Assembly (NCBI RefSeq): GCF_036588685.1
Contig: NC_086386.1
Span: forward strand, 61,070,001-61,134,000
Length of the DNA: 64,000 bases
Direction of reading: 5' to 3'
Source of the DNA: Mytilus trossulus
Lineage: Eukaryota
Every line of letters begins with the position of its first letter. Positions within the stretch are counted from its first letter, which is position 1. A model generated the notes under the pieces. That model was not told the DNA's origin. It was given only the letters and a program-made list of their open reading frames with translations, and ran no database searches. Both the position numbers and the translations under genes were made by a program. Of the stretch, positions 1,661-46,144 are shown in pieces.

Positions 1661-2414
1661 AATTATAGACGAATTGCCGATATCATTTTTCAAGCTATAA
1701 ATCGGTTAGGTTGAGAGTCAAAATAAGATCATATAAATGATTGTATAGCCTCTAGAGTACACTAAATTCATTATGTACAATTATTCACGAAACAAAGACA
1801 ACCGCTGGCAAACTAATAACAAAGAACAGGCAACTTGCAATCAGCTGATATACAAAATTTGCTTTCCAACACTGTAATATTAGCTGCTGTTCCCCCGAAT
1901 GAATTTTACACAGAAAGACAGACAAAAAAGTATGTTGTATCTGCTATGTTCAAAGTGAATTGAAGATTGTGTACACAATTTTAAAACATACCAACACGCC
2001 ACAGCACACACTATTAACTACGTAAAAAAACGGAAGAAAAATCATTTATGTATACATGTCTGCAGTTTAATTTGCGAAAAACATTCTCCGTTTCTTCCCT
2101 GCGTAAATTTTCACATTTCATTTTAAAAAGTATCTTCAGAAATTTTTCCTCTACTTGAATCATCACTTACTTTGTATATTCGAACCAGAAAAATTTATAT
2201 AGACACATGATCACACATTAAAGTTCTTTCGTTTTGTCAAACTTTTATTTCTAATTTAATGCTATTTTTTTCTGCTCTTTATAATTTTAATATTTTTCTT
2301 AAGCTTGTATTTTTTTTAAATCACTAAAATGAACCAAACCCATTCTGTATGTTCATATTATTAAGTTAGACTGATCGACCCTGACCCAAAGACACCTATT
2401 TATTCTGAAATGTA

Positions 2415-2530
2415 CTGGCCGAAATGTTTTCTGGACGTTGTGCTGTTGGACGTACTCATGGCCGAAATACTAGCGAGACTTTGTGCTGTCGGACTACCTA
2501 TGGCAGAAATACTAGCGATACTTTGTGCTG
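2415..2530. repeat. Short tandem repeat, ~42 bp x ~3
   Basis: tggccgaaatactagcgagactttgtgctgt-like unit repeated with divergence. Confidence 0.65.
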
Positions 2531-2542
2531 CTTTACGACCTG

Positions 2543-2634
2543 CAATCTAATTAAAATATTGATCTCTGATTACGTTATACTACATATGAGTATCTAGAAT
2601 AACGTAATCAGAGATCAATATTTTAATTAGATTG
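2543..2634. mobile_element. 92-bp micro-MITE with perfect 36-bp TIRs and 9-bp TSD
   Basis: 2543-2578 is the exact reverse complement of 2599-2634. Flanked by direct repeat TACGACCTG at 2534-2542 and 2635-2643. Confidence 0.9.
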
Positions 2635-4594
2635 TACGACCTGTCACAAGTTGACAGCTGTTTGTGTGTTTCATAAACGACGACGTCATAGACGATGAGA
2701 AAAAAACAACAACGAAAACATAACAAAAAAGTTGTTCATACAAGCAGAAATTTATAAACGTAGATAATCAAATGAATTTATAAAACATTATCTTGAAAAA
2801 ACTGTTTAGATTTAATTATTTGTATAAATTTCTCTTTGACATACACATAGATCTACGAAAACGCCCAACATCCGGTGAAAAAGCTGTAAAAATGAAACAT
2901 CCAATCGTACTATTATGTGATTGCGAAATTAAAGAAATTTTGTTATCAAAGACTACAATTTTCATTGAAATTTGAGGCTTTTTCCTTTAAATTATGTACT
3001 TCTGCTCTTACAGATCAACGAACGTGTTGTTATTTCATCAGCCTTTGCGCCTTTTGAATCCACAAGTCAAACACTCATTCTGTTGGTTTGTTTAGAAAAG
3101 AGGGACGAAAGATACCAAAGGGACAGTCAAACTCATAAATCTAGAAGACTTTTAACTGGCCCGAAAGTAATTTTACAAGTATGAAGTAAATGCCATAGAA
3201 CTTGTGGTTAAGCGTGAAGACTGTTTCGTATAACAATTTTCATGTTCTGGGTGCAGAAATTTGGTAAAACCTTAGATTTGCATATCGGTAATAAGTACAA
3301 GTAATTTGAAATGATTCCAGGCATAAAAAAAGAAAACAAATACTACATAGAATTTTGCAACAAAAGTCGGCAACTTATATTATCCGTTACCCCCATCCCC
3401 CTACACCCACCCCAAAAAAAAAACAGAAAGTGGATAACAAAAGGAGAGGGTGGCAGTTTATATTTTTTCTATTTTTTCTCTCTAATCAATCCTAAGGCTA
3501 AGTAAAGAGGAATGTGCAGTAATTGGCCAGAGTATGTTAGTGCTTTTATACTTGAAGTGCATTGTTCACTGATTGTATTGCGGAGTATAGCTACTTCCAT
3601 AACAAGAGGCGGATTTAGCGATTTTTATGGACCTTCATATGTTGTTGATTTATTATTTAGAGAATCACTGCGCGGAAGCATGACTGGATCGGGCCCGCTC
3701 TTAGGCAGTCATTGCCCCCTCGTATGAAAATTTCTGGATCCGCTATTGACTATATACTGCAGTGATATACTGTTATTCATATTTCAACAATGATTTCAGA
3801 ACTGTAGTTTGGTTGCAAGTTGTTGATCTTACAAATGCAGACACAAGTAAACAAAGATGTTTTAAACAATCATATACCCGTCATACATATACAGGATTAA
3901 ATATAACATGTACTAAAATTCATTCTAGTGTTATTTATTTCTTTTGAAGAGGTACACTTGTTGACAATCATCGCAATCTGGTCTACTATAATCAATAATT
4001 TAGTGTCGTTTGTTACAAAATTGGGGCGAAAGCACCCAGAGGGATAGTCAAATGTAGCATGGTTATTGATAGATCATGATACCAGAAGAATTCACGAAAA
4101 GACATAATAAAATATACTTGTTTTGTATAATTATTATAAAGAACATATCAGGTAACAATAAAATGAAATATTTTTGACACACAATTTCTTTACATTTGAC
4201 ATTTAATCAGTTTTCTGTAAATAATATTGATAATTTCTAAATGGCGCGATTGTTATCATTGTTGTTGCTCAAGCAAAAAAACGCGATAAAATAATTATTT
4301 TTCTGTTTCCTTTCGTTCCAAACATCAGCAAAAACATTTAATCAACCACAAGCAGTTATTTGAAATATATAGTTTACTGCATAAAACATTGGTAAATAAA
4401 TTATTAGCATATTGATGCGAGTGTCGTCTGGCTGAAATACAGATAAACACGTTGTCGAAATCCTTCTTTTGCAGCGCTTGGAAGTTTAATCCTTCCGCAA
4501 ATAGATTGTGTGTTAAACGCCCAGAATAAAAATATATATTTTTACCACAGCAACACTCACCATAGTGGTCTAATCACATTTTTTTCAGACACAA

Positions 4595-4687
4595 AAACAC
4601 AAATGGTCGTGACGGCCATTTTGGTTCATTGTTATGAGTGTAGCAACCGGGGTGCTCTCTATCACGTCCGCGTTCAAAAAATATAAA
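4595..4687 (+). promoter_or_regulatory. PL-III promoter: H1-box-like AAACACA, H4-box-like CGTCCG and TATA box
   Basis: AAACACA at 4595-4601, acgtccgc at ~4664-4671, TATAAA at 4682-4687, about 50 nt upstream of the ATG. These motifs are typical of H1-lineage genes. Confidence 0.55.
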
Positions 4688-4737
4688 CAAACGAGTTGTC
4701 TGTCCCAGCATCAGTCTTGTATCACCCAGCAAGAAGG

Positions 4738-5046
4738 ATGCCAAGCCCAACTCGTCGTTCATCCAAGTCCAGGTCCAGGAGCAGGAGCAGGTCAGCCTCC
4801 GCCTCCCCAGGAAAGGCAGCAAAACGTGCTCGTTCCAAGACCCCAAGAAAAGGAAAGAAGAGGGCAAGGTCTCCATCCAAAAAAGCAAGAAGGAGGTCTA
4901 GGTCTACCAAGAAGACAGCAGCTAAGAGGAGGAAGAGGTCCTCATCACCAAAGAAAAGGAGGTCTGCTGGAAAGAGGAGAGTAAGAGCAAAGAAAGGAGG
5001 AAACAGAAGGAGGTCCAGGGGAAAGAAAGCCGCAGCAAAGAAATAA
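4738..5046 (+). CDS. PL-III: Sperm nuclear basic protein, protamine-like PL-III (phi-1), 102 aa, intronless
   Basis: MPSPTRRSSKSRSRSRSRSASASPGKAAKRARSKTP...KKAAAKK. R/K/S/A-rich with an N-terminal RS repeat and no globular domain, matching the mussel PL-III pattern as I recall it. Real start is the ATG at 4738, not the TTG at 4696. Confidence 0.93.
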   Translation: MPSPTRRSSKSRSRSRSRSASASPGKAAKRARSKTPRKGKKRARSPSKKARRRSRSTKKTAAKRRKRSSSPKKRRSAGKRRVRAKKGGNRRRSRGKKAAAKK

Positions 5047-12551: not shown

Positions 12552-14556
12552 ATGTTGTTAGGTTTCTTCTACCTGTCTGTTCTTATTGTATGTGGAGAAA
12601 TAAACATGACTATAGAATCAGAGTTGGGTATGTACATTGCATACGTTTAGTTTATGCTTTAAAAAAAAATTATAATGTGGAAAAATAATCTTTATAAGAG
12701 AGTAAATGACAAGTTCACAAAAAAAAAAACGGATTAAAAAATTGGTAAAAAGCTCTAAGATAAAGATGGAAATTAAAATAAATCATATTAAGCAGAGGTC
12801 GCGGACGCTCGTCCTATGTTCACGACAAGGGAAAGGACGTTGACTATAGACTAAAATTAAGAATGGAAATGGGGAATGTATCAAAGAGACAACAACCCGA
12901 CCATACAGAAAAAAGCAACAGCGGAAGGTCACCAACAGGTCTTCAATGTAACGAGAAATTCCCGAACCCGGAGGTGGACTTCAGCTGGTCCCTAAACAAA
13001 TATATACTTGTTCAGTGATAATGAACGCCATAAAATATATATATATATTGGCTAGTACCCGGGGGTTCTTTGACACAAGTTTAACAATGGTCATACACAC
13101 TTTTACTTAGTTTTCAAAAAAAAGTTGGCACATAAAAAACACTTATACATACGCATGGATGTTTGCTTTGTAGATTCAACTTCTTTTAACGGAATTCAGT
13201 ATGACAACCATTAAGATTTAGTTTTAAAACATGTAAAGTTGTTGCCAAACTTACGACTGTTGACTTGTGTAAACGCTCTGCTTATTTATTTACAGCCTGT
13301 TCAGAAAAATCTAACATTGTCAACAAAGTAAAATTGTTGTGTAATGACATTGGAGCTGGTGGCAATGCGGGTGAGACTAAATTAAATATTTTCATAATCC
13401 TCTGCAGGCTTCAGGCTAGATGAAAATTTAGTTCAAAATATATTTTCTTTTATAGAACTTACATTGTTAAGCTTAAATTCAGACTACGTATGTTGTTTTG
13501 TGCTTCAATCAGTCTCGTTGTTTTCTCGTTTGAATGTTTTTAAATTATCTTTTCAATGGTGTTTTTTTTTTTGCTAACTATGCGGTCTGGGTTTTGTTCA
13601 TTGTTGAAGACATCACGCTGACATATAGTTTATATGTCATTTGGTCTCTGGTGGAGAGTTGTTTCATTGGTAATCATACCACATCTTCTTATTTTTTATA
13701 CTAGCCCTGTATAACCATGAAGGTGATCCGACGGAGAACGGCTGTCGTAAGGTAAACGTATATATGAGGCTAAAGAAAACAACCATAACCGGCACTGAAT
13801 TGTGTAGTTACAAAGAAAGAGTATCGGCTATAACAATCCTAATAAAAAAAAATTTTTTTTTTTAAATGTGAACAAGAAATCGTATTGATCAATATTTTGG
13901 CACAACAAATGACCCTCGTTAATGTCGAGCCCTGTTTAATTATGATTAAACGGTCCATTGTAAAGTTTATTTATTTAAGACAAAAAGAGTGATTATAAGT
14001 CAGACCTGGGATAAACAATATTTCATAATTTGTAATAAATTATAATGCAATTTTACAAAAAACAAAATGATTGCAATGACAAAAAGGACGATGATTTATA
14101 TATATTTTGATTACCTCTCAATACTGAAATTGCATTTTGTGTTTTTTTCCAGTGCATCCCAACACTTACACTGGTGTGTCGATTTTCACAGCTTCTGTGA
14201 GTAGGAGGAAATACGTGGTAAAAGGAAATATCGTGAGATTTGACAAAGTATGGTCAAACATCGGCAATAACTACGATCCACGCTCTGGTGTATATACAAC
14301 ACCAAAGGATGGTGCATATCATTTCTCTTGTACAGTGATGTCTCAAGGTAACAATGGCATTCGCGTCAACCTTTGGAAAAATGACGTAAAGACTGTTGCA
14401 ATTTATTCATATGGTTCTTATGGTGGAACACTGAATATGGCGCTTGACTTGAAAAGGGGGGACAGAGTGTACATTAAACAAAGTCATGTTGAAAACTACA
14501 TTTATGCTGAGCCGGAATATCATTTCAGTATGTTTTCTGGCTTTCATATTTCCTGA
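12552..14556 (+). CDS. C1q-domain-containing protein 1 (secreted globular C1q), 3 coding exons
   Basis: Exon 1 12552-12627 (signal peptide MLLGFFYLSVLIVCG; alternative in-frame ATG at 12540). Exon 2 13296-13370 (ACSEKSNIVNKVKLLCNDIGAGGNA). Exon 3 14153-14556 (gC1q: FTAS..FDKVWSNIG..YDPRSGVYT.P.DGAYHFS..L.RGDRVYI..FSMFSGF). All introns GT-AG, phase 1. AATAAA at 14616. Confidence 0.88.
12854..13032 (-). repeat. Interspersed repeat family 2 (in C1qDC-1 intron 1)
   Basis: gaatggaaatggggaatgtatcaaagagacaacaacccgacc...cagctggtccctaaacaaatatata. Reverse copies at ~34645-34815 and ~11150-11210, fragment at ~52198. Confidence 0.7.
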
Positions 14557-15458
14557 GAAACTTTATCACTTATATATCGACATACTGGTATCGTATCTAC
14601 AAAGAATATCACTGCAATAAAATATGTATACATTTACATTGTCTTTTAATGACTTAAACCTAGCCGATTTTAGAATGCATTTCCATCATGTATACCAAAA
14701 TTGGATTGCCCGGGTTAGACTATATACTTGGGTGATACCAACACTTTGACGTTTGAATTAGGTTTTAGATTTTCAATTATTTTTGCCTCTCCGATCTCAG
14801 AAGTAACATTTGTTTAATTGTGCATCTGGTGTAGAAACATGTTATTAATTGCAAGTTCGAAGATATTTTATTGTATTTGGAGACTTTAGACTATCGAATC
14901 GAAAATGATGCTAGCCAATCCAGATGCTATACAGGTATCTAAGTACTAACTCAACTGAACGAAAACACTTCTTAAACATACATTTCGAAATCAGTCAATC
15001 ATACTGTGGCTTTCTTTAATATATTTTTTTTTTCATTCGCAATATATGACAAACAAGAACAACAAAAAACATTTTTTAGACCGTATAGTAAGGTATAAAC
15101 CCCAAAATAACAATAAACCGACGAAGAAGGAACATAAAAGCTCATTAGTCGAAGATAAATTGATCCGTCATGTCAAAAAAAAGAAGAAAAAAACGACGAA
15201 AAGACTACATTCAGAAAAAGACAGCTTCAAAGAGCTAGCAACACTAACACCTTCAATAGCGGGGGTAATATAAGGTGTGTCGAAAGGGTAAGCAAATCCT
15301 GCTCCTCATTTTGGGAATCGTCGTCACGGTTCCTTGTGTAAGCACAGAATTCTACGATAAGTCTCTTTTTGAGTTGTCAATTTCGAAAGAAAAAAAAATA
15401 TAACGGGATTGACGTTACAAGAATATTTAAACATGCATATATATATATATATATATAT

Positions 15459-15797
15459 AAACGCCTAAAAAGTGTACATAACAACACCAATCACACAAAA
15501 AGGAACTATAAATGTAATTATTTATAAATATTTCGGATAACAGATATCCTTCGTCAGTCAAATTCTGATTTTAACATCAGAATTTGACTGACGAAAGAAT
15601 TTGACTGACGAAGGATATCTGTTATCCGAAATATTTATAAATAATTACATGTATAGTTCCTTTTTGTGTTATTGGTGTTGTTATGTACACTTTTTAGGCG
15701 TTTATATTATAATTTATTTTATTGTGTACATGTATCGTTACTTGTAACGATCCAGCGCCCTCGTGGGAAAAATCGTTGACTATTATTCAGACGTTTT
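15459..15797. mobile_element. Module C: short head-to-head (fold-back) non-coding Penelope-type element with hammerhead motifs
   Basis: 15459-~15570 is the inverted copy of ~15596-15705. A 17-bp local duplication agaatttgactgacgaa lies near the centre. Bounded by (TA)n on both sides. Confidence 0.75.
15600..15642 (+). ncRNA. Minimal hammerhead ribozyme-like motif (module C); mirrored on the minus strand at ~15520-15562
   Basis: CTGACGA-A-GGATA-tctgt-TATCC-GAAA-TATT: intact CUGANGA and GAAA cores with a 5-bp stem II. Stem I is weak. Confidence 0.65.
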
Positions 15798-15807
15798 ATA
15801 TATATAT

Positions 15808-16530
15808 ACCTGTTAGTCAAATGCGTTTTGTTTAAATATACTTTTTCACGCTTTTGGTCTTTTGGAAAATGTTGTTTGTGCTGTTTTTAGACCCTTCTAC
15901 AACGAAATTTGTTTGACATGCACACGTATAAAAATTGCGGTTTTTATCCAACGCAGTCATAGGTTTGAACGTAGTTTTCAATTTAGACTCGTTTATATTT
16001 TTTGTTTGGGCATGTAACATATTTTCCCTCCGGTTTATATGATCCGTTCATCCTATATATTGACTCTTAAAATTCAAGAGTTAATCTAAAAATGAGGGTA
16101 CTTTCTCTAAAAATTGAGGGTACTTTTTATATGGCCTTCCAAATACCGTTTCGATCCCTAACATCACTGAAGAGACATTTATTGTCGAAATCCGGATATG
16201 GTGTACTTAAGAAATATTGACACCGAATGTTTGTGGCACAACATCCTGTCCACAAGTTAACAATTTTTTTTTTTCTGTGACGTATCAATTTTATTTGGCA
16301 GTCGTCAATGGCAGTCAGCAGGGTTAAAGAACATCAGTTGTTCGACCTGTTAGTCAAATGCGTTTTGTTTAAATATACTTTTTCACGCTTTTGGTCTTTT
16401 GGAAAATGTTGTTTGTGCTGTTTTTAGACCCTTCTACAACGAAATTTGTTTGACATGCACACGTATAAAAATTGCGGTTTTTATCCAACGCAGTCATAGG
16501 TTTGAACGTAGTTTTCAATTTAGACTCGTT
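15808..16530 (+). mobile_element. Module A (left): hammerhead-bearing partial tandem (retrozyme / non-autonomous PLE), period 537 bp
   Basis: ~185-bp direct terminal repeat (15808-15992 and 16345-16530) around an internal segment containing the hammerhead. (TA)n on both sides. Confidence 0.8.
16161..16204 (+). ncRNA. Type I minimal hammerhead ribozyme (module A left)
   Basis: ACATCA-CTGAAGA-GACA-tttat-TGTC-GAAA-TCCGGA-TA-TGGTGT: stem I, core, stem II, palindromic stem III (ATCCGGAT), AUA cleavage triplet. Confidence 0.85.
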
Positions 16531-16552
16531 TATATATATATATATATATATA

Positions 16553-16620
16553 ACCATAAATTTGCGAAAGCAAATTTACAGATCTAACATTGTTGGTTTG
16601 ATGTTTAGACGAGTTGTATT
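16553..16620 (+). repeat. Module B 3' fragment
   Basis: aaatttgcgaaagcaaatttacagatctaacattgttggtttgatgtttagacgagttg is the reverse complement of 20726-20790. Flanked by (TA)n. Confidence 0.8.
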
Positions 16621-16801
16621 TATATATATATATATATAGTGTCTAAAAATAGCAACAATCAACATTCAATCTATATAGGTGTGGATCAGTTTGTAAATAA
16701 ACTGATGCAGTTACTAAATTGAATTATATAAGTGTCTAAGAATGTAACTTTAACACACTTATGAGTGTTATAAAATTAGGTGTTATATTTTATATATTAT
16801 T

Positions 16802-16842
16802 CACGCAATATTTCGCTAAACAAATTAGCTTCATCGGGCGTG
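16802..16842 (-). ncRNA. Hammerhead-like motif in PLE 3' UTR (left arm)
   Basis: Mirror image of 19251-19291. Confidence 0.6.
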
Positions 16843-17028
16843 TGCATCTATCAAGGTGAAATCGGATGCATGACAAAAAATATCTTTGTAGCTTGAGCTA
16901 CACAAAAGTTTAACATATTGATTAATGATCTGTATAAAACATTTTTTTGCCGTTTATTGTACATAAACATTTTTTTCAAAAATTTAAACAAATAGTTGTT
17001 TTAGTTAAATAGAAGTAAAATTGATGAG

Positions 17029-17961
17029 TTATTCCTTTGCTTTCGGGTAGAACTGTTTTTCATCCCTCTCATTAAGTCCATCAGGTTCAAGAGTACGTAG
17101 CTGATGCATCCAGAACCTTTCTCTCTTTTTCCTCATTTCTGAGTCCCAATTTTGGTTTACCTCAATTATTTGAAAGGTGATATTTTCAAAGGTATGTCCT
17201 GTTCTTAAGAGGTGTCTCGTAATTGGACAGTTTCTTCCTTTTGTATAAAACGACCGATGATTGTTTAGTCTGATGTTAAATGTGGTTTCTGTTTCACCAA
17301 CATATTGCAGCTTGCAAGTTCCACAAGTAAGAATATAAATACTATTTTCCGTTTTGCAATTAGATGTAACATAGATGTTGTATCGCTGCTTTGTTACTGT
17401 GCTGCTGAAAGAGTGGTCAGTGTTGGCGGCTTTACAGCACTTACAGTTCCTTCTACCGCATTGTTTGTAACACCCAAATTTTGAAGTTTCTTGTTTCTTT
17501 ACTTTTGATGTCACAAGTATGTCTTTGAGATTTTTGGGTCTGCGATAGGCAATAAGAGGAGGTGATGGAAAAATTTCTTTTAAGGACGAGTCATTTTCGA
17601 TTAGACGCCAGTGCTTTCGGATAAAAGATGAAATATTTGTCAAATCGGGATGGAATGTTACAACAAACGGAATTCTATCTGCACGGGTCGCCTTATTTTT
17701 GTATTCCATGAGGCTAGCTCGATCTTTTTCTTTAGCTTTATCAAAAGCGTCTGTGATGTTTTTGGTTTTATATCCTCTTGATTTCAGCTGTGTTTTTAGT
17801 TGTCCCAAACGATAGTTGAGTTTGGATTCAGAGGAGCAAATTCGCTTTAGTCTGATGGCTTGACTGTAAGGTATACTCCTGGAGCAGTGTTTCGGATGAA
17901 AACTTTTTGGAGAAAGGAACTGGTGTTTATCAGTTTTCTTTGTGTGGAGGTCAGTTGTCAT
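17029..17961 (-). CDS. PLE polyprotein C-terminal part: RT thumb, Cys-rich linker, GIY-YIG endonuclease (left copy)
   Basis: S.HP.H..RSIPYSQA.R..RIC thumb motif, CGRRNCKCC linker, IYILTCGTCKLQYVGET..RLNNH GIY-YIG, E.FW..L.T..P.GLN. The frame continues upstream through IKFT..FLD (RT motifs 6-7) to the palindrome centre. Confidence 0.88.
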   Translation of the reverse strand: MTTDLHTKKTDKHQFLSPKSFHPKHCSRSIPYSQAIRLKRICSSESKLNYRLGQLKTQLKSRGYKTKNITDAFDKAKEKDRASLMEYKNKATRADRIPFVVTFHPDLTNISSFIRKHWRLIENDSSLKEIFPSPPLIAYRRPKNLKDILVTSKVKKQETSKFGCYKQCGRRNCKCCKAANTDHSFSSTVTKQRYNIYVTSNCKTENSIYILTCGTCKLQYVGETETTFNIRLNNHRSFYTKGRNCPITRHLLRTGHTFENITFQIIEVNQNWDSEMRKKRERFWMHQLRTLEPDGLNERDEKQFYPKAKE

Positions 17962-18132
17962 GATCCCGTTTTTTACAAATGTGGTGGTGTCGAGAAAAGC
18001 AATTTTCTCGCTTGAAAATTCAGATGTAAATTTAATTAAATTTAATTTAAATACTCAATTAAATTTACATCTGAATTTTCAAGCGAGAAAATTGCTTTTC
18101 TCGACACCACCACATTTGTAAAAAACGGGATC

Positions 18133-19065
18133 ATGACAACTGACCTCCACACAAAGAAAACTGATAAACACCAGTTCCTTTCTCCAAAAAGTTGTCATCC
18201 GAAACACTGCTCCAGGAGTATACCTTACAGTCAAGCCATCAGACTAAAGCGAATTTACTCCTCTGAATCCAAACTCAACTATCGTTTGGGACAACTAAAA
18301 ACACAGCTGAAATCAAGAGGATATAAAACCAAAAACATCACAGACGCTTTTGATAAAGCTAAAGAAAAAGATCGAGCTAGCCTCATGGAATACAAAAATA
18401 AGGCGACCCGTGCAGATAGAATTCCGTTTGTTGTAACATTCCATCCCGATTTGACAAATATTTCATCTTCTATCCGAAAGCACTGGCGTCTAATCGAAAA
18501 TGACTCGTCCTTAAAAGAAATTTTTCCATCACCTCCTCTTATTGCCTATCGCAGACCCAAAAATCTCAAAGACATACTTGTGACATCAAAAGTAAAGAAA
18601 CAAGAAACTTCAAAATTTGGGTGTTACAAACAATGCGGTAGAAGGAACTGTAAGTGCTGTAAAGCCGCCAACACTGACCACTCTTTCAGCAGCACAGTAA
18701 CAAAGCAGCGATACAACATCTATGTTACATCTAATTGCAAAACGGAAAATAGTATTTATATTCTTACTTGTGGAACTTGCAAGCTGCAATATGTTGGTGA
18801 AACAGAAACCACATTTAACATCAGACTAAACAATCATCGGTCGTTTTATACAAAAGGAAGAAACTGTCCAATTACGAGACACCTCTTAAGAACAGGACAT
18901 ACCTTTGAAAATATCACCTTTCAAATAATTGAGGTAAACCAAAATTGGGACTCAGAAATGAGGAAAAAGAGAGAAAGGTTCTGGATGCATCAGCTACGTA
19001 CTCTTGAACCTGATGGACTTAATGAGAGGGATGAAAAACAGTTCTACCCGAAAGCAAAGGAATAA
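18133..19065 (+). CDS. PLE polyprotein C-terminal part: RT thumb, Cys-rich linker, GIY-YIG endonuclease (right copy)
   Basis: Same as the left copy except for 3 aa differences (F/C, C/Y, F/S). The RT catalytic core is absent because of 5' truncation. Confidence 0.88.
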   Translation: MTTDLHTKKTDKHQFLSPKSCHPKHCSRSIPYSQAIRLKRIYSSESKLNYRLGQLKTQLKSRGYKTKNITDAFDKAKEKDRASLMEYKNKATRADRIPFVVTFHPDLTNISSSIRKHWRLIENDSSLKEIFPSPPLIAYRRPKNLKDILVTSKVKKQETSKFGCYKQCGRRNCKCCKAANTDHSFSSTVTKQRYNIYVTSNCKTENSIYILTCGTCKLQYVGETETTFNIRLNNHRSFYTKGRNCPITRHLLRTGHTFENITFQIIEVNQNWDSEMRKKRERFWMHQLRTLEPDGLNERDEKQFYPKAKE

Positions 19066-19250
19066 CTCATCAATTTTACTTCTATTTAACTAAAACAACT
19101 ATTTGTTTAAATTTTTGAAAAAAATGTTTATGTACAATAAACGGCAAAAAAATGTTTATTCAGATCATTAATCAATATGTTAAACTTTTGTGTAGCTCAA
19201 GCTACAAAGATATTTTTTGTCATGCATCCGATTTCACCTTGATAGATGCA

Positions 19251-19291
19251 CACGCCCGATGAAGCTAATTTGTTTAGCGAAATATTGCGTG
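19251..19291 (+). ncRNA. Hammerhead-like motif in PLE 3' UTR (right arm), U4C core variant
   Basis: CACGC-CCGATGA-A-GCTAA-tttgt-TTAGC-GAAA-TATT-GCGTG: perfect 5-bp stems I and II, minimal palindromic stem III, CCGAUGA in place of CUGAUGA. Confidence 0.62.
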
Positions 19292-19746
19292 AATAATATA
19301 TAAAATATAACACCTAATTTTATAACACTCATAAGTGTGTTAAAGTTACATTCTTAGACACTTATATATATATATATATATATATATACGAGTCTAAATT
19401 GAAAACTACGTTCAAACCTATGATTGCGTTGGATAAAAACCGCAATTTTTATACGTGTGCATGTTAAACAAATTTCGTTGTAGAAGGGTCTAAAAACAGC
19501 ACAAACAACATTTTCCAAAAGACCAAAAAAGTGAAAAAGTATATTTCAACAAAACGTATTTGACTAACAGGTCGAACAACTGATGTTCTTGAACCCTGCT
19601 GACTGCCATTGGCGATTGCCAAATAAAATTGATCACAAGATGTAACAAAATGGATCTTAAAATAAATCTAATACTAAACAGAAAAACTTTTTAAACTTGT
19701 GGCCGCGATGTTATGCCACAAACATACGGTGTCAATATATCTTAGT

Positions 19747-19790
19747 ACACCAGATCCGGATTTCGACAATAAATGTCTCTTCAGTGATGA
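19747..19790 (-). ncRNA. Type I minimal hammerhead ribozyme (module A right, unit 1)
   Basis: Reverse complement reads CATCA-CTGAAGA-GACA-tttat-TGTC-GAAA-TCCGGA-TC-TGGTG (AUC triplet). Confidence 0.85.
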
Positions 19791-20316
19791 TAGGGATCGA
19801 AACGGTATTTGGAAGGCCATATTAAGAGTATCCTCATTTTAAGAAAAAGTACCCTAATTTTTAGATAAACTCTTGAATTTAAAGAGTCAATATAGGATGA
19901 ACGGATCATATAAACCGGAGGGAAAATATGATACAAAGCCCAAACAAAAAAATATAAACGAGTCTAAATTGAAAACTACGTTCAAACCTATGATAGCGTT
20001 GGATAAAAACCGCAATTTTTATACGTGTGCATGTTAAACAAATTTCGTTGTAGAAGGGTCTAAAAACAGCACAAACAACATTTTCCAAAAGACCAAAAAA
20101 GTGAAAAAGTATATTTCAACAAAACGTATTTGACTAACAGGTCGAACAACTGATGTTCTTGAACCCTGCTGACTGCCATTGGCGATTGCCAAATAAAATT
20201 GATCACAAGATGTAACAAAATGGATCTTAAAATAAATTTAATACTAAACAGAAAAACTTTTTAAACTTGTGGCCGCGATGTTATGCCACAAACATACGGT
20301 GTCAATATATTTTAGT

Positions 20317-20360
20317 ACACCAGATCCGGATTTCGACAATAAATGTCTCTTCAGTGATGT
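20317..20360 (-). ncRNA. Type I minimal hammerhead ribozyme (module A right, unit 2)
   Basis: Same motif as 19747-19790, 570 bp away. Confidence 0.85.
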
Positions 20361-20725
20361 TAGGGATCGAAACGGTATTTGGAAGGCCATATTAAGAGTA
20401 TCCTCATTTTAAGAAAAAGTACCCTAATTTTTAGATAAACTCTTGAATTTAAAGAGTCAATATAGGATGAACGGATCATATAAACCGGAGGGAAAATATG
20501 ATACAAAGCCCAAACAAAAAAATATAAACGAGTCTAAATTGAAAACTACGTTCAAACCTATGATTGCGTTGGCTAAAAACCGCAATTTTTATACGTGTGT
20601 ATGTTCAACAAATTTCGTTGTAGAATGGTCTAAAAACAGCACAAACAACATTTCCCATAAGGCCAAAAAAGTGAAAAAGTATATTTCAACAAAACGCATC
20701 TGACTAACAGGTCATATATATATAT

Positions 20726-21547
20726 AACTCGTCTAAACATCAACCCAACAATGTTAGATCTGTAAATTTGCTTTCGCAAATTTTTGGTTCTTCTCTCGCC
20801 GGGATTCGAACCCATGCTACTGTGATATCGTGACACCAAATCGCCTGCACTGCAGTCGTCCCGCTAGACCACATGACCACCTGGGCTCTAAAAAAAGAGC
20901 TTTCGCTGGCCATGTGTTACCTTTCCACGTCAGTTTTAATCTAGCGGCGTACTACAGTACATGATATATAAGGCATGAAGATGTTATTGTTACAGATCAA
21001 CTAAATTATCCATAGTAAAGGATCCTACAAATTATTGTAAGATACAGTCACAGAAAATAATTATATTCATAAGTACGTCTGAGTCAGTGACAACCCTACA
21101 ACAGATGTATCCATCGGATCGCCATTAATGATGGTTATACATGGCTGTGTACATAATGTATATACAACTCGTCTAAACATCAACCCAACAATGTTAGATC
21201 TGTAAATTTGCTTTCGCAAATTTTTTGTTCTTCCCTCGCCGGGATTCGAACCCATGCTACTGTGATATCGTGACACCAAATCGCCTGCACTGCAGCCGTC
21301 CCGCTAGACCACACGACCACCTGGGCTCTCAAAAAAAGAGCTGTCGCTGGCCATGTGTTACCTTTCCACGTCAGTTTTAATCAAGCGGCGTACTACAGTA
21401 CTTGCTATATAAGGCATGAAGATGTTATTGTTACAGATCAGCTAAATTATCTATAGTAAAGGATCCTACAAATTAATGTAAGATACAGTCACAGAAAATA
21501 ATTATATTCATAAGTACGTCTGAGTCAGTGACAACCCTACAACAGAT
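20726..21547 (-). mobile_element. Module B: 440-bp tandem (~1.9 units) with an internal tRNA-like Pol III promoter
   Basis: aactcgtctaaacatc at 20726 and 21166. Minus-strand A box (TGGTC(A/G)TGTGG) and B box (GGTTCGAATCCC) within 20791-20886 and 21231-21326. A T7 run lies just upstream of each head. (TA)n on both sides. Confidence 0.8.
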
Positions 21548-22168
21548 ATATATATATATATATGTTTGTTGTCATTTGTAATCATTTAGATGCAGCTCCC
21601 TTGTAACATTTTAATGACACTAACAATCGTATTCGGTTTCTAAAAACTTATTATGTTAAAGAATACTTCGGTTGATGATCTTTGTGCCATACAAAAAGTT
21701 GTACCAACCTCGACTTCGTCTCGGATAACATTTATATATTTAGATGCAGTCTACCAAAACACACTAAACTATCGACAAATAGTTTATTCTATGTAAAACA
21801 CAGTTTAATATAAAAATAAGGAGAATTTTGAATAACCAAATCTGAAAATGAATTAGACAAAATACATAAATCTAAAGCTGAAAACCGAAAAAGCTTGCTT
21901 AACAAGTTGGACAACTATTTCTCTAAACAGCACCAATCTTTATTAAAAGTCGGTCAATTTTGAAGCTGTGTTTACTTAAAAGTGAAACTATTGTACCTAT
22001 CAATACAATAGCATGATATATACATACAAGAGGTATACTATTTCAGTATGATATTACAAGGGACACGGTAACATATTTAAGATCAGAACATGCATAAAGT
22101 ATACACTGCTAGGACAAACATTAAACACACTCGGAAGAAACGATAGATTAATTTCTAAAGAGGACAGT

Positions 22169-23443
22169 ATGCCTCTTTTCTTCTTCGTGTCTGTTCTGAT
22201 TTGGTGTGGAGAAATATGTATGACGCAATGTTCCAGTTGGGGTATGTAAAATAGAATATACAACTATATTATCATGATCCTTGTCCAATCAGAAGAAGGA
22301 TTTGCAAAATTTGGTCGTTTTTTACGCCACAATATTTTCTCGTATTAAAAACAAACGCATGTGCATATCTAGCTTTTAAAAGAGTAAGAATATCCAGCCT
22401 GTTAAAAAAAAGCGAATCGAGTTATATATACAACACCATCATGACATGCATGATCAAAATAAAACTTGCCACTCTGGTTCACTGGTTAACATATTAAGAA
22501 TATCTTATATGCATACACCCCCTTTTCAAAAATTCGCACCTGGAGTGATAGAACTAATTTTAATCAGATTAATTACTACAGTGTATCGACGATAAATTGT
22601 GCCAATGATAGTAAATTGATTACAATGGTAAAAAAAATCTTCACTAGCACTGTCGGAACATTGAAATTACAGCTGCAACATACCAGTCATGTGCAACTTC
22701 TTACAATATCTTACCATATCATTTATGTTCCGATACACATTTTAATATGCACCCACCATTCCATATAGCATCGTCCCTTTGTGCCTCCTGCAGTTCAGCT
22801 AAATATATAGTTAGCCTACTTTCTAGGGGTGTGTCAGAGACGAAGGTTTTATAAATACTCCTGTATATTATAATACATGAAAACTGTTGTTTCTTTTTTG
22901 TGTTTGTAACTATGTTTACTGTTGTTTTATTTTATATTTGTACAAGAATAATATTATAATGATATCATAGCATGCTCCTTGTGACTCACAAGTTGTGAGC
23001 CCAGTTTATGGAAATAAAGCATATTCTTCTTCTTTTCTATTGATTTTTTAGGTGCGTCGGGTTTCTCAGCTTCTATAAGTAAAAGTAAACACGTGGTCAG
23101 AGGAGGCATCATAAGATTTGACAAAGTATGGAGCAACATAGGGAACAATTTTGATCAATATTCTAGTGTGTATACAGCTCCAAGAAATGGCGCATACCAT
23201 TTCTCATGTACCGTAATGTCTCATAGAAACAATGCTATTCGAGTCAATCTGTGGAAAAATCACTCAAAGACTGTTGCAGTTTACTCGAATAGTCACTATG
23301 GTGGTACACTCAATATGGTACTTGACCTAAAGAGAGGAGACAGGGTGTACATTAAACAAGGTCATGTTGAAAACTACATATATGCTGAACCTGATTATCA
23401 TTTCAGTATGTTTTCTGGCTTTCTCATTCAAGTTCATGAGTAA
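22169..23443 (+). CDS. C1q-domain-containing protein 2 (secreted globular C1q), 2 recognisable coding exons
   Basis: Exon 1 22169-22241 (MPLFFFVSVLIWCGEICMTQCSSW, paralogous to gene 1 exon 1, GTATGT donor). Exon 2 23052-23443 (gC1q, closely similar to gene 1). The phase-1 join keeps the frame. AATAAA at 23488. Confidence 0.87.
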
Positions 23444-24975
23444 CTTTTTGAACTAAATCAGAATATTTGCGATGAATATAAATAAGTAATAAAATACTTG
23501 CATTTATTTCTTAGACTACATTGTTTTATTATTCAAAAATTAATAAACATTCTGTACTTGCTTGTCTCAGTGGTTGTCGTTTGCCACGGGTCATATATGA
23601 GTAAAAAAGACTAGCTACAACGTAGACCTATATGCACGTGTAGTTAATAAATAAAAAAAACTGTTATGAAACAGACACACATCTATCTATGATACTAGAT
23701 ACGAAATAAATACCGAAGGTCGGCCTCTGATGAAGGTTTACTTGGGAATACTCCCGAAAAAACCCGAAACATTGCATATTAAATTCTTAAGAATTAAGCG
23801 ATAAAAAGTACGTAGTGTCAGGTCAGAAATATTGATACCATACCATGAATAAGTGGGTTTATGGTCAATTTATAAAACTATATGATATTTTTTAATTGGC
23901 CTGTGGTTTTGTTAATAAACAATGCCGTTAGTTTTCCTGTACGAATTGTTTTACATTTGACATTTTACGATCATTTGTTTAGCTTAGTATGCTGTATTGG
24001 TTTTGCTCATTGTTGGGGGTCGTATACGGTCACTTATTGTTAGATGGACTCTTGTTGGGAGTTGTCTAATTGACAATCTTACCACAACTCTTAAGTTGTA
24101 TATATGAGAAATCGTGCATTTGATTGTGGATTTCGCAAAGGTCGGATTGATTGTCCCAGTTTGAATATATATGTTTAGTCCCTCTCGTTTTATATCAGCT
24201 CTTCGACGCTCGTATTGGATTTTGGAATTCCGAATATTTTGACCTTCAGATTATCTGAAAACAATTTATTTTTCGAGATTCAGTGAGAAGTTGTTTCCTA
24301 TGTCTTAACCAAACCCCTTTCCATTCCGGACTATGCACCTCCGTGCAGCATTGTTATAGGTGCATGTTTCAAGTACTACTAACTAATCAACCATTCAACC
24401 TCTCCACATTATTGTGACTATACCTAGAAGTTGCTGTATTTATAATAGTCACTTTTTTTTCTAGATATACAATATGTGTACATTGTCGGAAAACAAAACA
24501 AAAATATTTGTACGTGCTTTAGAAATAAGACAAAAAGCGAGGTTCGCCAACCAAATCTCAGTCTAGTTGTGCAGCGGGTACAAACAAATTTTATATTTCC
24601 GACTATGTTGTTTTTTATTTTGCAATTTATCCCCAGCACTTGAAGCTTTATATATTAGTATTTGTCTAAATTGAAATAGTTGTCTCTCATTTTTCAAAAA
24701 AAACCAAAAAACGACATACTTTAAACGCCGACATCGAAGAAGAACGGTTACCACAAATAAACTGTTATGCTACAATAAATATTCACATTATAACTTGCTC
24801 AAGATGGAAAAAGGTAGACTAAAAAATACCAAACTCCGAGGATAATTAAAAACGGAAGGTCCTTTATAATATTGCAAAATCAAAAGCTCAAAAACATCAA
24901 ACTATTCAATGGAAAACTACTATCATGTGAAGCGGGATAACAGGAGACTTTATTTGAACAAGTACATATAAAGCA

Positions 24976-26840
24976 ATAGATTAGCTCATTGGGTAGATGA
25001 TAACAATGTACTGGCGGACGAGCAGAATGGTTTCCGGCAACAACGTAGTACAATTGACCAATTGTCTAGTCTTACTAATTTGATTGATGTAAGAAAAAAA
25101 CTTCGTAAATCAACCTTTTGCGCCTTTATTGATTTTAAAAAGGCTTACGACACTATACAAAGGGATATTTTATGGTATAAATTAAATAAAATGGGTGTTG
25201 CACAGACTTTTTGTTCTGCTATTAAGTCAATTTATACAAATGTTTTATGTTCTGTAAGAATAAACGGTCATTTCACAGACTGGTTTGATGTTAACTGTGG
25301 CTTGAAACAAGGATGTCCCTTGTCGCCCATTTTGTTCAACTTGTATATTAATGATTTAGTTACATTTCTTAAGTCCTTTGACTGCGGAATAGAAATAGGT
25401 GATGAAAAACTATGTATTTTGTTATATGCTGATGACGTTGTAATTATAGCAAACGATGAAAAAGAACTTCAACTTATGTTAAATGCTTTATCTACATGGT
25501 GTAAAGACAATTGTATGAAAATTAATGCAAACAAGAGTAACATTGTACATTTTAGACCGCCATCTATACCTAGATCTGGTGTAATTTTTAATTGTAATGG
25601 TCATACTATTAAGTTTTCTAGTAATTATACTTATCTTGGTCTCGTTTTAAACGAGCATTTAGACTATAATGTTACTGCAAAAGCCGTTGCATCTTCAGCA
25701 AATAGGGCTTTAGGGTTGGTAATAGCCAAGTGTAAACTTTTAGGTGGTGTTTGTTTCGATGTATTTGTAAAATTATATGAAAGTTTAGTTTGTCCTATAA
25801 TAGAATATGGAGCAGGTATATGGGGTGTAAAATCATATTCTTGTATTAACTCCATTCATAATAGGGCTTGTAGATTTTTTCTCGGTGTAGGAAAATATGC
25901 ACCAAATGCTGCAGTTACTGGAGACTTAGGTATAACACCTATTTTTGATAAGCAGTGGAAAAGTATTATTCGTTTGTGGTGTAGATTAAATAACATGAGC
26001 TCAAACCGTTTAAATGCGAAAGTTCACAAGTGGGCTGATAGTATGAGTATTAAGCATAAGTGTGTCAAAAACTGGAATTTTGTAGTAAAGAAAACCTTCT
26101 GTGAACTAAATTTAAGTCATTTATCGTGTCCTGAAAATATGGACACTAACTATGTTATAAAAAATTTTATGTCAAAATTACATAGAAAACATGTCGATAA
26201 TTGGCATGCTGTTTTGCATTCTGATAAATCTATATCGGGTAGAGGTGGCAATAAGCTACGAACTTACAGACTGTTTAAGGAAAATTTTGAACCAGAGGAA
26301 TACTGCAAAATAGCTTTACCCTTCAGTCACAGAAGTGCTTTCGCCAAATTTAGATGTGGTGTTGCTCCCCTTAGAATTGAAACAGGGAGATATGAAAATA
26401 TTGTTTTAGAAAATAGAGTGTGCCATATATGTGACGTTTTTATTGAAGATGAAGCGCATGTTTTATTAAGATGTCCTCTTTATGACGATTTTAGAAACCA
26501 TTTATATCATGTTGCTGAAACTTTTAATGATAATTTTGATACTTTAGATGATAATCAAAAGTTAGTGTTTTTATTCTCAGATGTAAATATGATTCGTGTG
26601 TGTGCCAAAACCTGTCATTTAATTTTAAAAAGACGTAGGAATTTTATATATTGTACATAATATTTTATTTCATATTATGTATTATTATTATCTATGCATT
26701 TTAATAGTCTCTTATAATTCTGTATAGAATGGCTCTCATTTTATTTAGTGTTATTTTACAATGTTACTATTGTATAAAGATTGATTGTACTTGTTGAGAG
26801 ATGAGACTTTAATAAAACATTGAATTGAATTGAATTGAAT
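24976..26840 (+). mobile_element. 5'-truncated non-LTR retrotransposon (CR1/L2-group LINE)
   Basis: RT homology from ~24972 (EQNGFR..RSTIDQ), 3' UTR with AATAAA and a (TTGAA)4 tail. 9-bp TSD TATAAAGCA at 24967-24975 and 26841-26849. Confidence 0.9.
25062..26660 (+). CDS. LINE ORF2 fragment: reverse transcriptase and C-terminal Cys/His domain
   Basis: FIDFKKAYD, GLKQGCPLSPILF, LLYADD, YTYLG, C..C....EDE.H....C. Uninterrupted frame, but no APE endonuclease domain and no true start codon. Confidence 0.88.
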   Translation: MSSLTNLIDVRKKLRKSTFCAFIDFKKAYDTIQRDILWYKLNKMGVAQTFCSAIKSIYTNVLCSVRINGHFTDWFDVNCGLKQGCPLSPILFNLYINDLVTFLKSFDCGIEIGDEKLCILLYADDVVIIANDEKELQLMLNALSTWCKDNCMKINANKSNIVHFRPPSIPRSGVIFNCNGHTIKFSSNYTYLGLVLNEHLDYNVTAKAVASSANRALGLVIAKCKLLGGVCFDVFVKLYESLVCPIIEYGAGIWGVKSYSCINSIHNRACRFFLGVGKYAPNAAVTGDLGITPIFDKQWKSIIRLWCRLNNMSSNRLNAKVHKWADSMSIKHKCVKNWNFVVKKTFCELNLSHLSCPENMDTNYVIKNFMSKLHRKHVDNWHAVLHSDKSISGRGGNKLRTYRLFKENFEPEEYCKIALPFSHRSAFAKFRCGVAPLRIETGRYENIVLENRVCHICDVFIEDEAHVLLRCPLYDDFRNHLYHVAETFNDNFDTLDDNQKLVFLFSDVNMIRVCAKTCHLILKRRRNFIYCT

Positions 26841-45600: not shown

Positions 45601-46144
45601 CATTGTCTGGATAAATATCGTAATTTTGGATCCCATTTCTTCCGGTATCTTTATCCAATGCTGCTGGGACTGAAAAACGTGTCCCTACAGGTGTAGATTC
45701 AGACACGTTTAATTTCATTATGGGTTGTGGAAAAGATGGAGCATGATCGTTGATATCCTGTACATGAATGGAAGTAGTAATCAACTTGAAAAAGTTTGTT
45801 TTTTGTGAGTTGGCTACAAAATTTAACACAAGAATACAATCAGAAACATCACTGCATTCTGGAATTATTTCTCGATCAATCAGCATGATAGTTTGTAAAG
45901 CACCTGTAGATTTGTCAATTGAAAACATATTTTGATAAACATTATCTCCAATGTAACCATAACTAATACTATCAAATTCTTCACTCGTCAAGTTTTCTGT
46001 TAATCTAGCCTCAGTGGCAATATTCCCCACAGGAGTATTCATAGGCAGTTCTTCCTGAATTGAGAACGAAATCTGTATGGTGTCATCTCCAAAACATGCC
46101 ACAAAGAATAAAGTCAAAATCGAAAGATAAAATGAATAGCACAT
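36612..46144 (-). CDS. Protocadherin, delta1-like (7 cadherin repeats, TM, CM1-like motif), ~1111 aa, 4 coding exons
   Basis: Exon 46144-43472 encodes the signal peptide, 7 EC repeats with DRE/DxNDxxP/AxDxG motifs and the TM (acceptor at 46220, so a non-coding exon lies further upstream). Exon 39189-39076. Exon 38404-38290 (DNHSDSSGETTTSDSGRGGSE, CM1-like). Exon 37045-36612 ends in DLVV. Phases 0/0/1 are consistent and introns are GT-AG. Confidence 0.9.

What the first reader, a model, noticed from the sequence alone, without database searches (positions are those of the whole stretch)
16725..19368. 2.6-kb near-perfect palindrome of an endonuclease-only PLE fragment with both ORFs open
Seen: ~1.31-kb arms with a 19-nt spacer and only a few substitutions (3 aa changes, one indel in the UTR). 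Truncation falls in RT motif 6 and leaves an in-frame ATG ahead of the thumb, linker and GIY-YIG. Established: PLE insertions often have 5' inversions, but these are usually short. Inference: fold-back or template-switch synthesis copied the whole cDNA. Read-through transcription would give a 1.3-kb hairpin (possible siRNA/piRNA source). Divergent transcription could give a stand-alone endonuclease. The DNA should be prone to cruciform formation.
Basis: partly seen in the sequence, partly recalled or inferred. Interest (0 to 1): 0.7.

Follow-up and report, generated by a model that had tools for sequence, protein, structure and literature searches.

The report
Head-to-head Penelope insertion, one tail
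This 2.6-kb mirror repeat is a pair of cut-short copies of a young mussel jumping gene joined head to head, a known by-product that recurs at many places in this genome; its one-sided tail likely means that each half was started separately, and its open reading frames likely reflect youth, not a working gene.

Summary
The palindrome is in the sequence: 1.31-kb arms, 4 substitutions, 1 indel. It is a 5'-truncated, head-to-head insertion of a young Penelope-like (PLE) family of a Mytilus mussel into (TA)n; an intact 3,251-bp RT+GIY-YIG unit lies elsewhere. It is not exceptional: 9 of 29 complete pairs overlap by over 1 kb, and one has 2.1-kb arms with no mismatch. Genome-wide, 21 of 22 diverging end pairs have one tailed and one untailed end (p=4e-6), and 6 of 29 junctions are symmetric within 10 nt (0.5 expected). 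This argues for two priming events, one per RT start site, with fold-back or co-termination at the centre, not for one cDNA copied whole. Open ORFs fit youth: 25 of 36 family segments are open. No promoter or RNA evidence supports an endonuclease-only product. Hairpin-derived siRNA is plausible and precedented, but untested. The scan noted a similar 680-bp PLE palindrome elsewhere in this genome. Known kind; modest mechanistic value.

The parts
16621..16638 (.). left (TA)n target run
16633..16724 (-).
   Evidence: 98.9% to bases 1-93 of the tandem unit L027:1594-4844
16725..18037 (-). left arm: 3' 1,313 nt of the PLE unit (unit positions 1939-3251), two private substitutions
16802..16842 (-). 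minimal type I hammerhead-like motif (core CCGAUGA, extra A before stem II), 3' UTR/pLTR of left arm
   Evidence: pattern scan, 0 hits in 10 shuffles of the window; cleavage untested
17029..17961 (-). left truncated ORF from the internal ATG (thumb, CX4CxxC linker, GIY-YIG)
   Evidence: start mirrored from 18133
18038..18052 (.). 15-nt junction insert, not element sequence; 10 nt repeat the adjacent arm start
18053..19368 (+). right arm: unit positions 1935-3251, no tail, two private substitutions and likely the 1-nt deletion; first 4 nt absent from the left arm
18133..19065 (+). right truncated ORF, 310 aa from the internal ATG; GIY-YIG PF01541
19251..19291 (+). minimal type I hammerhead-like motif in the right arm
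   Evidence: the CCGAUGAA core is in 101 of 110 matches across fetched loci
19363..19388 (.). right (TA)n target run
15808..16535 (+). flanking 570-bp-family repeat with a canonical type I hammerhead (16161-16204), retrozyme-like; a separate insertion pointing at the palindrome
16552..16627 (-). end fragment of the 441-bp repeat family (95% to 20714-20789); a separate insertion
19382..20713 (-). flanking 570-bp tandem repeat (about 2.3 units) with hammerheads at 19748-19789 and 20317-20360, retrozyme-like; a separate insertion pointing at the palindrome

Best explanation
The locus is a 5'-truncated, head-to-head insertion of a young Penelope-like retrotransposon into a (TA)n run, likely made in one event in which both ends of the cut target primed reverse transcription, one at the element's tailed start site and one at the untailed site 93 nt upstream. 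Shown: family identity, (TA)n at both ends, a tail on one arm only, one source for both arms, the genome-wide one-tail rule and the excess of symmetric junctions. Inferred: a dimeric protein primes both ends on RNA from one source copy; the untailed (right) cDNA stopped at unit position 1935, added 15 nt by stuttering on its own AT-rich end, folded back and copied itself, and that strand annealed to the tailed cDNA (about 55%); or both cDNAs ran to the same RNA end and were joined (about 35%). Since then the arms have gained 4 substitutions and 1 indel without selection. It is a dead-on-arrival copy; its most likely effect is double-stranded RNA if read through from the flanks.
For: Full-length unit of 3,251 bp with a 959-codon stop-to-stop RT+GIY-YIG frame, arms 98.9% identical to it. 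59 untailed and 78 tailed exact ends, all followed by TATATA by pattern design; 22 diverging pairs within 12 kb: 21 tail/no-tail, 1 no-tail/no-tail, 0 tail/tail, p=3.7e-6 against random pairing. In 13 of 20 asymmetric pairs the untailed arm reaches further 5', so neither arm can be a copy of the other; in 7 of 29 the tailed arm stops at unit positions 3240-3310, at or within the tail, as in twin priming. Junctions within 10 nt: 6 of 29, 0.49 expected, p=1e-5; within 25 nt: 9 of 29, 1.0 expected, 0 of 100,000 shuffles; all 9 are tail/no-tail. Window arms: all 4 differing alleles are private, 2 per arm, and the arms share 11 minor alleles; nearest other copy is 0.9% away against 0.3% between arms; 2 of the 3 alleles private stay private over L021-L140. 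Separate insertions at one site differ at many polymorphic sites (L030: 22 of 34, L043: 19 of 36). Abortive fold-back tracts starting where the final arm starts: 10 nt here, 34 nt in L078. In vitro, the anole PLE cuts and extends both strands, starts RT at two sites that bound the tail, and is predicted to be a dimer (PMC11167929, main text parts 1-2 of 4 read).
Against: The junction sequence cannot tell fold-back in cis from joining of two cDNA ends. The 4 extra nt of the right arm could reflect later trimming of a hairpin centre. L028 is a no-tail/no-tail pair. L038 (4 of 9 differences) and L021 (1 of 2) have arm differences with both alleles seen in other copies, so some pairs may use two templates or have been converted. 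The first 31 regions were chosen for long matches, which inflates the share of long arms. The 29 pairs were compiled by hand. In the anole element RT starts at sites not homologous to the cut DNA, whereas both ends here end in TATATA, so an untailed end could also arise by strand transfer onto (TA)n. No long reads and no empty allele were seen.
Confidence: 0.72

Rival explanations
1. One priming event only: a tailed cDNA folded back, was copied almost whole, and the copy jumped onto the other (TA)n end at the TATATA of the untailed site.
For: Excess of symmetric junctions (6 of 29 within 10 nt); stutter tracts at the centre; arms from one source; self-priming proposed for Adineta palindromes (PMC3846280, discussion read).
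Against: The untailed arm has 4 nt that the tailed arm lacks; the untailed arm is longer in 4 of 9 near-symmetric and 13 of 20 asymmetric pairs; fold-back of untailed cDNAs would give no-tail/no-tail palindromes, seen in 0 of 9 near-symmetric pairs although 59 of 137 ends are untailed.
Confidence: 0.13
2. Inverted duplication after insertion (break repair or replication fold-back of an older single copy).
For: AT-rich, self-complementary centre with a locally templated insert; inverted 570-bp repeats on both sides.
Against: The palindrome stops exactly at the element's untailed end; the flanking repeats are only 88-96% alike and differ in structure; the same rule holds at 21 other-chromosome and same-chromosome pairs.
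Confidence: 0.06
3. Assembly artefact from fold-back chimeric reads.
For: No run examined bridges the junction (4 contig runs); PLE inversions are known to trouble assemblies (PMC8557442, passages).
Against: A chimeric read would mirror the flanks and the tail as well; here the tail is one-sided, the flanks differ, each arm has private changes, and the centre holds element bases from one arm only. The runs are other samples and short-read contigs, so the missing bridge says nothing.
Confidence: 0.04
4. A functional, divergently transcribed gene pair making a stand-alone GIY-YIG endonuclease.
For: Both frames open, in-frame ATG at 18133 with A at -3, linker and catalytic motifs present.
Against: The ATG is an internal Met codon of the full ORF; only 33 AT-rich nt separate the arms and the pLTR ends point outward; 25 of 36 family segments are equally open; 3 of 3 coding changes are non-synonymous (P about 0.5 by chance; no stop expected with P about 0.8).
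Confidence: 0.04

Closest known systems
Inverted / head-to-head insertions of EN+ PLEs (general scheme in Craig et al. 2021, PMC8557442; passages read)
   Same: 5'-truncated inverted copy at the 5' end, partial tandems, tail at one end only, (TA)n targeting, CX2-5CxxC linker and CCHH motif
   Different: Tail is 93 nt here against 30-40 bp; the one-tail rule and junction symmetry are counted here over one family
Adineta vaga Pen2a/Pen3a palindromic junctions (Arkhipova et al. 2013, PMC3846280; passages and discussion read)
   Same: Head-to-head arrangement, palindrome at the inverted junction, optional tail on one inverted end, self-priming proposed
   Different: There the palindromes named are 18-38 bp at about 200-bp pLTRs, with TSDs; here the arms are 1.3 kb of ORF and no TSD can be read in (TA)n
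Anolis Poseidon PAc in vitro (Frangieh et al. 2024, PMC11167929; parts 1-2 of 4 read)
   Same: Two RT start sites bounding the tail, both target strands cut and extended, predicted dimer, hammerhead in the pLTR
   Different: Poseidon clade lacks the linker Zn finger; its start sites are not homologous to the target, whereas both ends here carry TTAGAC..TATATA; the parts read do not derive inverted insertions from the two sites
Long inverted-repeat Penelope copies in transgenic Drosophila melanogaster (review PMC3681739; passages read)
   Same: Rearranged copies with long inverted repeats; siRNAs mapped precisely to the inverted regions
   Different: No small-RNA data were examined for the mussel locus
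L1 twin priming (recalled, no call)
   Same: Two primers from one target break give an inverted, 5'-truncated insertion; 7 of 29 pairs here have such near non-overlapping arms
   Different: L1 arms do not overlap and the second primer site is not fixed; here most arms overlap and the second site is the untailed start

Membership tests
EN+ Penelope-like element, C-terminal GIY-YIG | Single ORF with RT followed by GIY-YIG endonuclease | tested here: met
   L027:1661-4537, RVT_1 E 2.5e-10 then GIY-YIG E 3e-6; the window holds only the 3' part
EN+ Penelope-like element, C-terminal GIY-YIG | DKG motif and CCHH motif in the endonuclease | tested here: met
   DKG, SIYILTCGTCKLQYVG, RLNNH, RHL, RERFW, GLN found; motifs as described in PMC8557442
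EN+ Penelope-like element, C-terminal GIY-YIG | Partial tandems / pLTRs, inverted 5'-truncated copies, optional tail | tested here: met
   3,251-bp tandem units, 93-nt tail, 29 complete inverted pairs
EN+ Penelope-like element, C-terminal GIY-YIG | Minimal type I hammerhead in the pLTR | tested here: inconclusive
   Stems I and II, extra base between positions 9 and 10.1 and palindromic stem III are present (features in PMC4209133, passages), but the core reads CCGAUGA in 101 of 110 matches; Rfam gave no hammerhead match; cleavage untested
Neptune/Nematis clades | CX2-5CxxC linker between RT and EN; (TA)n targeting | tested here: met
   CGRRNCKCC; ends in (TA)n
Neptune/Nematis clades | Placement in an RT tree with named reference elements (Neptune versus Nematis) | not tested
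   No named reference PLE proteins came back (one search gave unnamed or 'uncharacterized' relatives; no PDB match)
Naiad / Chlamys (N-terminal EN) | Endonuclease upstream of RT, DKA motif | tested here: not met
   EN is C-terminal and the motif is DKG
Domesticated stand-alone endonuclease gene | Purifying selection, own promoter, own transcript | tested here: not met
   3 of 3 coding differences non-synonymous, openness matches family background; promoter and transcript not testable for this individual
Non-LTR retrozyme (flanks only) | Short tandem repeat, no ORF, canonical type I hammerhead in each unit | tested here: met
   570-bp units with hammerheads at 16161, 19748, 20317; unit longer than the 350-390 bp reported for M. 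galloprovincialis (PMC7229834, passages); circular RNA not tested

The most novel reading that the evidence does not exclude
This mussel family records how PLE inversions are made: one protein dimer primes both ends of a (TA)n break at the two fixed RT start sites of RNA from one source copy, which forces exactly one tail per inverted insertion, while displacement and fold-back yield perfect palindromes up to 4.2 kb that feed family-wide siRNA silencing; a shared TTAGAC end signal lets retrozyme-like repeats use the same machinery.
Probability: 0.4. Interest if true: 0.55.

Novelty: new member of a known kind. Interest (0 to 1): 0.32.

Why it matters
The locus alone is ordinary transposon debris. 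Its family is useful: how PLEs form tandem and inverted structures is named as an open question in PMC8557442 (passage), and the counts here (21 of 22 one-tail pairs, symmetric-junction excess, one source for both arms) tie the two RT start sites found in vitro to inverted insertions in vivo and give predictions that the existing in vitro system can test. Kilobase palindromes flanked by inward-pointing, likely transcribed repeats are also candidate siRNA sources and fragile sites.

Tried and rejected
Rfam scan of 14500-22500: 30 matches, miRNA-like hairpin hits far below gathering scores caused by the palindrome; no hammerhead model hit. PDB sequence search: 0 matches. Run search: 24 runs listed, 23 as contigs, 1 as raw short reads, none recorded as long reads. 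Four runs laid on the locus: no listed contig bridges the junction; other samples and short-read contigs cannot test it. Four RNA or possibly-RNA runs laid on the full unit: 106 reads from 8.7 million raw records (about 6% of run X24, a different organism label from most holders), mostly one mate direction along the ORF, no strand-switch joints, no pile of starts near the internal ATG; too thin, and not the carrier, so no evidence for or against a hairpin or an endonuclease-only transcript. Using arm-shared private alleles to separate fold-back from co-termination: rates were alike in symmetric and asymmetric pairs, so not informative. Exact-extension junction ends are shifted by polymorphisms in some loci; BLAST ends gave the same counts for the 29 pairs (9 within 25 nt; 6 within 10-12 nt). 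Dropped before counting: apparent duplicates L046 (of L048), L134 (of L133), L136 (of L108), L125 (same place as L126), L137/L138 (decayed, stuttered), and L130 (300 nt between arms); 13 junctions with an incomplete or unresolved partner were counted only. Paper searches: 'Penelope + twin priming + inverted' gave 2 unrelated papers; searches listed no paper stating a one-tail rule with counts; subscription papers (for example the 2004-2006 PLE papers) are not in the library and no supplements were read, so absence from print is not established. Dating in years was not attempted (no rate in hand).

Full report
Observation. The inverted repeat is present: arms 16725-18037 and 18057-19368, 19 nt apart, differing by four substitutions and one 1-nt indel. 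Both frames are open and encode a GIY-YIG domain. The first in-frame ATG is at 18133 (310 aa). The window has no N.

What it is. The window is G000:C14:61070001-61134000 of a 1.3-Gb genome; the arm has 45 listed matches from 40 scored of 915 candidates, mostly 96-99% identical. A relative at 100% identity over 75% of the protein is labelled Mytilus trossulus. A tandem array (L026/L027) gives a 3,251-bp unit with a 959-codon stop-to-stop frame, RVT_1 then GIY-YIG, with DKG, FIDD, a CX4CxxC linker and the CCHH residues. These features place it among C-terminal EN+ PLEs of the Neptune/Nematis type (PMC8557442, passages); no tree was built. The window arms are unit positions 1939-3251 (left) and 1935-3251 (right), so the catalytic RT motifs are lost by 5' truncation.

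The left arm continues into 93 more bases of the element, the tail (16633-16724); the right arm stops at the untailed end. Both ends sit in (TA)n. The spacer is 15 nt of non-element DNA plus 4 element bases found only in the right arm; 10 of the 15 repeat the adjacent arm start. Each arm holds a minimal hammerhead-like motif with a CCGAUGA core, and the flanks are 570-bp repeats with canonical hammerheads, both pointing at the palindrome (0 hits in 10 shuffles). The flanks are 88-96% alike and are separate insertions.

Origin and age of the arms. Against 46 other family segments, all four differing alleles are private, two per arm, and the arms share 11 minor alleles; they are 0.3% apart and 0.9% from the nearest other copy. 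Two of three locus-private shared alleles stay private over all fetched loci, one is seen once more. So both arms came from one source and have since drifted. All three coding changes are non-synonymous (chance about 0.5), no stop is expected with chance about 0.8, and 25 of 36 segments that span the same stretch are open (insertions not seen by that test). Open ORFs therefore need no selection.

The family rule. Exact patterns found 59 untailed and 78 tailed ends. Of 22 diverging pairs within 12 kb, 21 are tail/no-tail, one is no-tail/no-tail (L028) and none is tail/tail; p=3.7e-6. From 120 fetched regions and the window I compiled 29 complete tail/no-tail pairs and 13 junctions with an incomplete or unresolved partner (dropped rows are listed under Tried and rejected). 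Nine of 29 overlap by more than 1 kb; L031 has 2,118 aligned bases with no difference. The first 31 regions were picked for long matches, so that share is inflated. Junctions are symmetric within 10 nt in 6 of 29 (0.49 expected, p=1e-5) and within 25 nt in 9 of 29 (1.0 expected); the untailed arm is longer in 4 of those 9 and in 13 of the 20 asymmetric pairs; in 7 of 29 the tailed arm stops within 12 nt of the untailed site or inside the tail. Of 42 junctions, 30 have inserts, 9 microhomology, 3 are blunt. Paired arms share their source in most cases; L038 and L021 are partial exceptions.

Mechanism. The anole PLE protein cuts and extends both target strands, starts reverse transcription at two sites that bound the tail, and is predicted to be a dimer (PMC11167929, parts 1-2 of 4). 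The counts above fit one priming at each site, one on each end of a (TA)n break (inference). A single cDNA copied whole cannot give an untailed arm longer than the tailed arm, and would give no-tail/no-tail palindromes, which were not seen among the 9 near-symmetric pairs. The symmetric excess still needs a cause. I favour fold-back of one cDNA followed by annealing of the new strand to the other, complementary cDNA, because abortive copies starting where the final arm starts are seen here (10 nt) and in L078 (34 nt). Two cDNAs running off one broken RNA end fit the same junctions and are not excluded. These steps are inferred.

Consequences. A read-through transcript would form a 1.3-kb hairpin; the centre folds with the arms paired almost to the tip. 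siRNAs matching inverted Penelope copies are reported in transgenic flies (PMC3681739, passages), and mussel retrozymes are highly transcribed (PMC7229834, passages), so the inward-pointing flanks are a possible source of read-through. None of this was shown here: the RNA runs were thin and from other samples. An endonuclease-only product lacks a promoter candidate and any sign of selection. Cruciform formation was not tested.

Artefact. No long reads were available and short-read contigs of four other runs do not bridge the junction. A fold-back read would mirror tail and flanks too, so the one-sided tail, unlike flanks, private changes per arm and the recurring rule make an artefact unlikely.

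Known versus new. Inverted 5'-truncated copies, a tail at one end, (TA)n targeting and palindromic junctions are all described (PMC8557442; PMC3846280). What my searches did not find in print is the counted one-tail rule and the symmetric-junction excess; subscription papers and supplements were not seen. Verdict: real, a new member of a known kind, interest 0.32.

Noticed in passing
TA-run flanks in window 16531-16638, 19363-19388, 20715-20726 and loci L021-L139: A TTAGAC motif lies a few bases from the TA run at both PLE ends and at the ends of about five other repeat families: 101 of 551 non-family flanks hold TAGAC in the last 16 nt, 6 expected. The count reflects a few families, not independent events; it may be a shared RT start signal for non-autonomous repeats.
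   Followed up: partly
L031:2492-6829 (G000:C20): A 4.2-kb palindrome of the same family, 2,118 aligned bases with no difference, 2-nt spacer, both 618-codon frames open: a more extreme case than the finding.
   Followed up: partly
L026/L027 (G000:C7:21291.5-21302.2 kb): Three tandem full-length units with near-identical sequence and two intact 959-codon frames; a likely active source array.
   Followed up: partly
window 15413-15749: A separate 154-bp-arm inverted repeat (86%) with a hammerhead-core-like stretch near 15610 read by eye; likely an older head-to-head end of another PLE or retrozyme family.
   Followed up: no
   Followed up: no
window 14128-14556 and 23018-23443: Two C1q-domain exons (PF00386 E 6e-20 for the first; 76% alike) bracket the repeat cluster.
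   Followed up: partly
window 4687-5046: Arg/Lys/Ser-rich frame resembling a mussel sperm protamine-like protein (resemblance recalled).
   Followed up: no
window 43307-46159 (-): 950-codon open frame with cadherin-like repeats, protocadherin-like by eye.
   Followed up: no
window 24972-26660 (+): 562-codon open frame of a 5'-truncated LINE-type reverse transcriptase, by eye.
   Followed up: no
L046:3416-3549 and L048:6588-6717: Short inverted piece with a template jump (unit 2090 to 2465) that runs into the 570-bp repeat family; the same structure occurs twice on C5 in opposite orientation.
   Followed up: no
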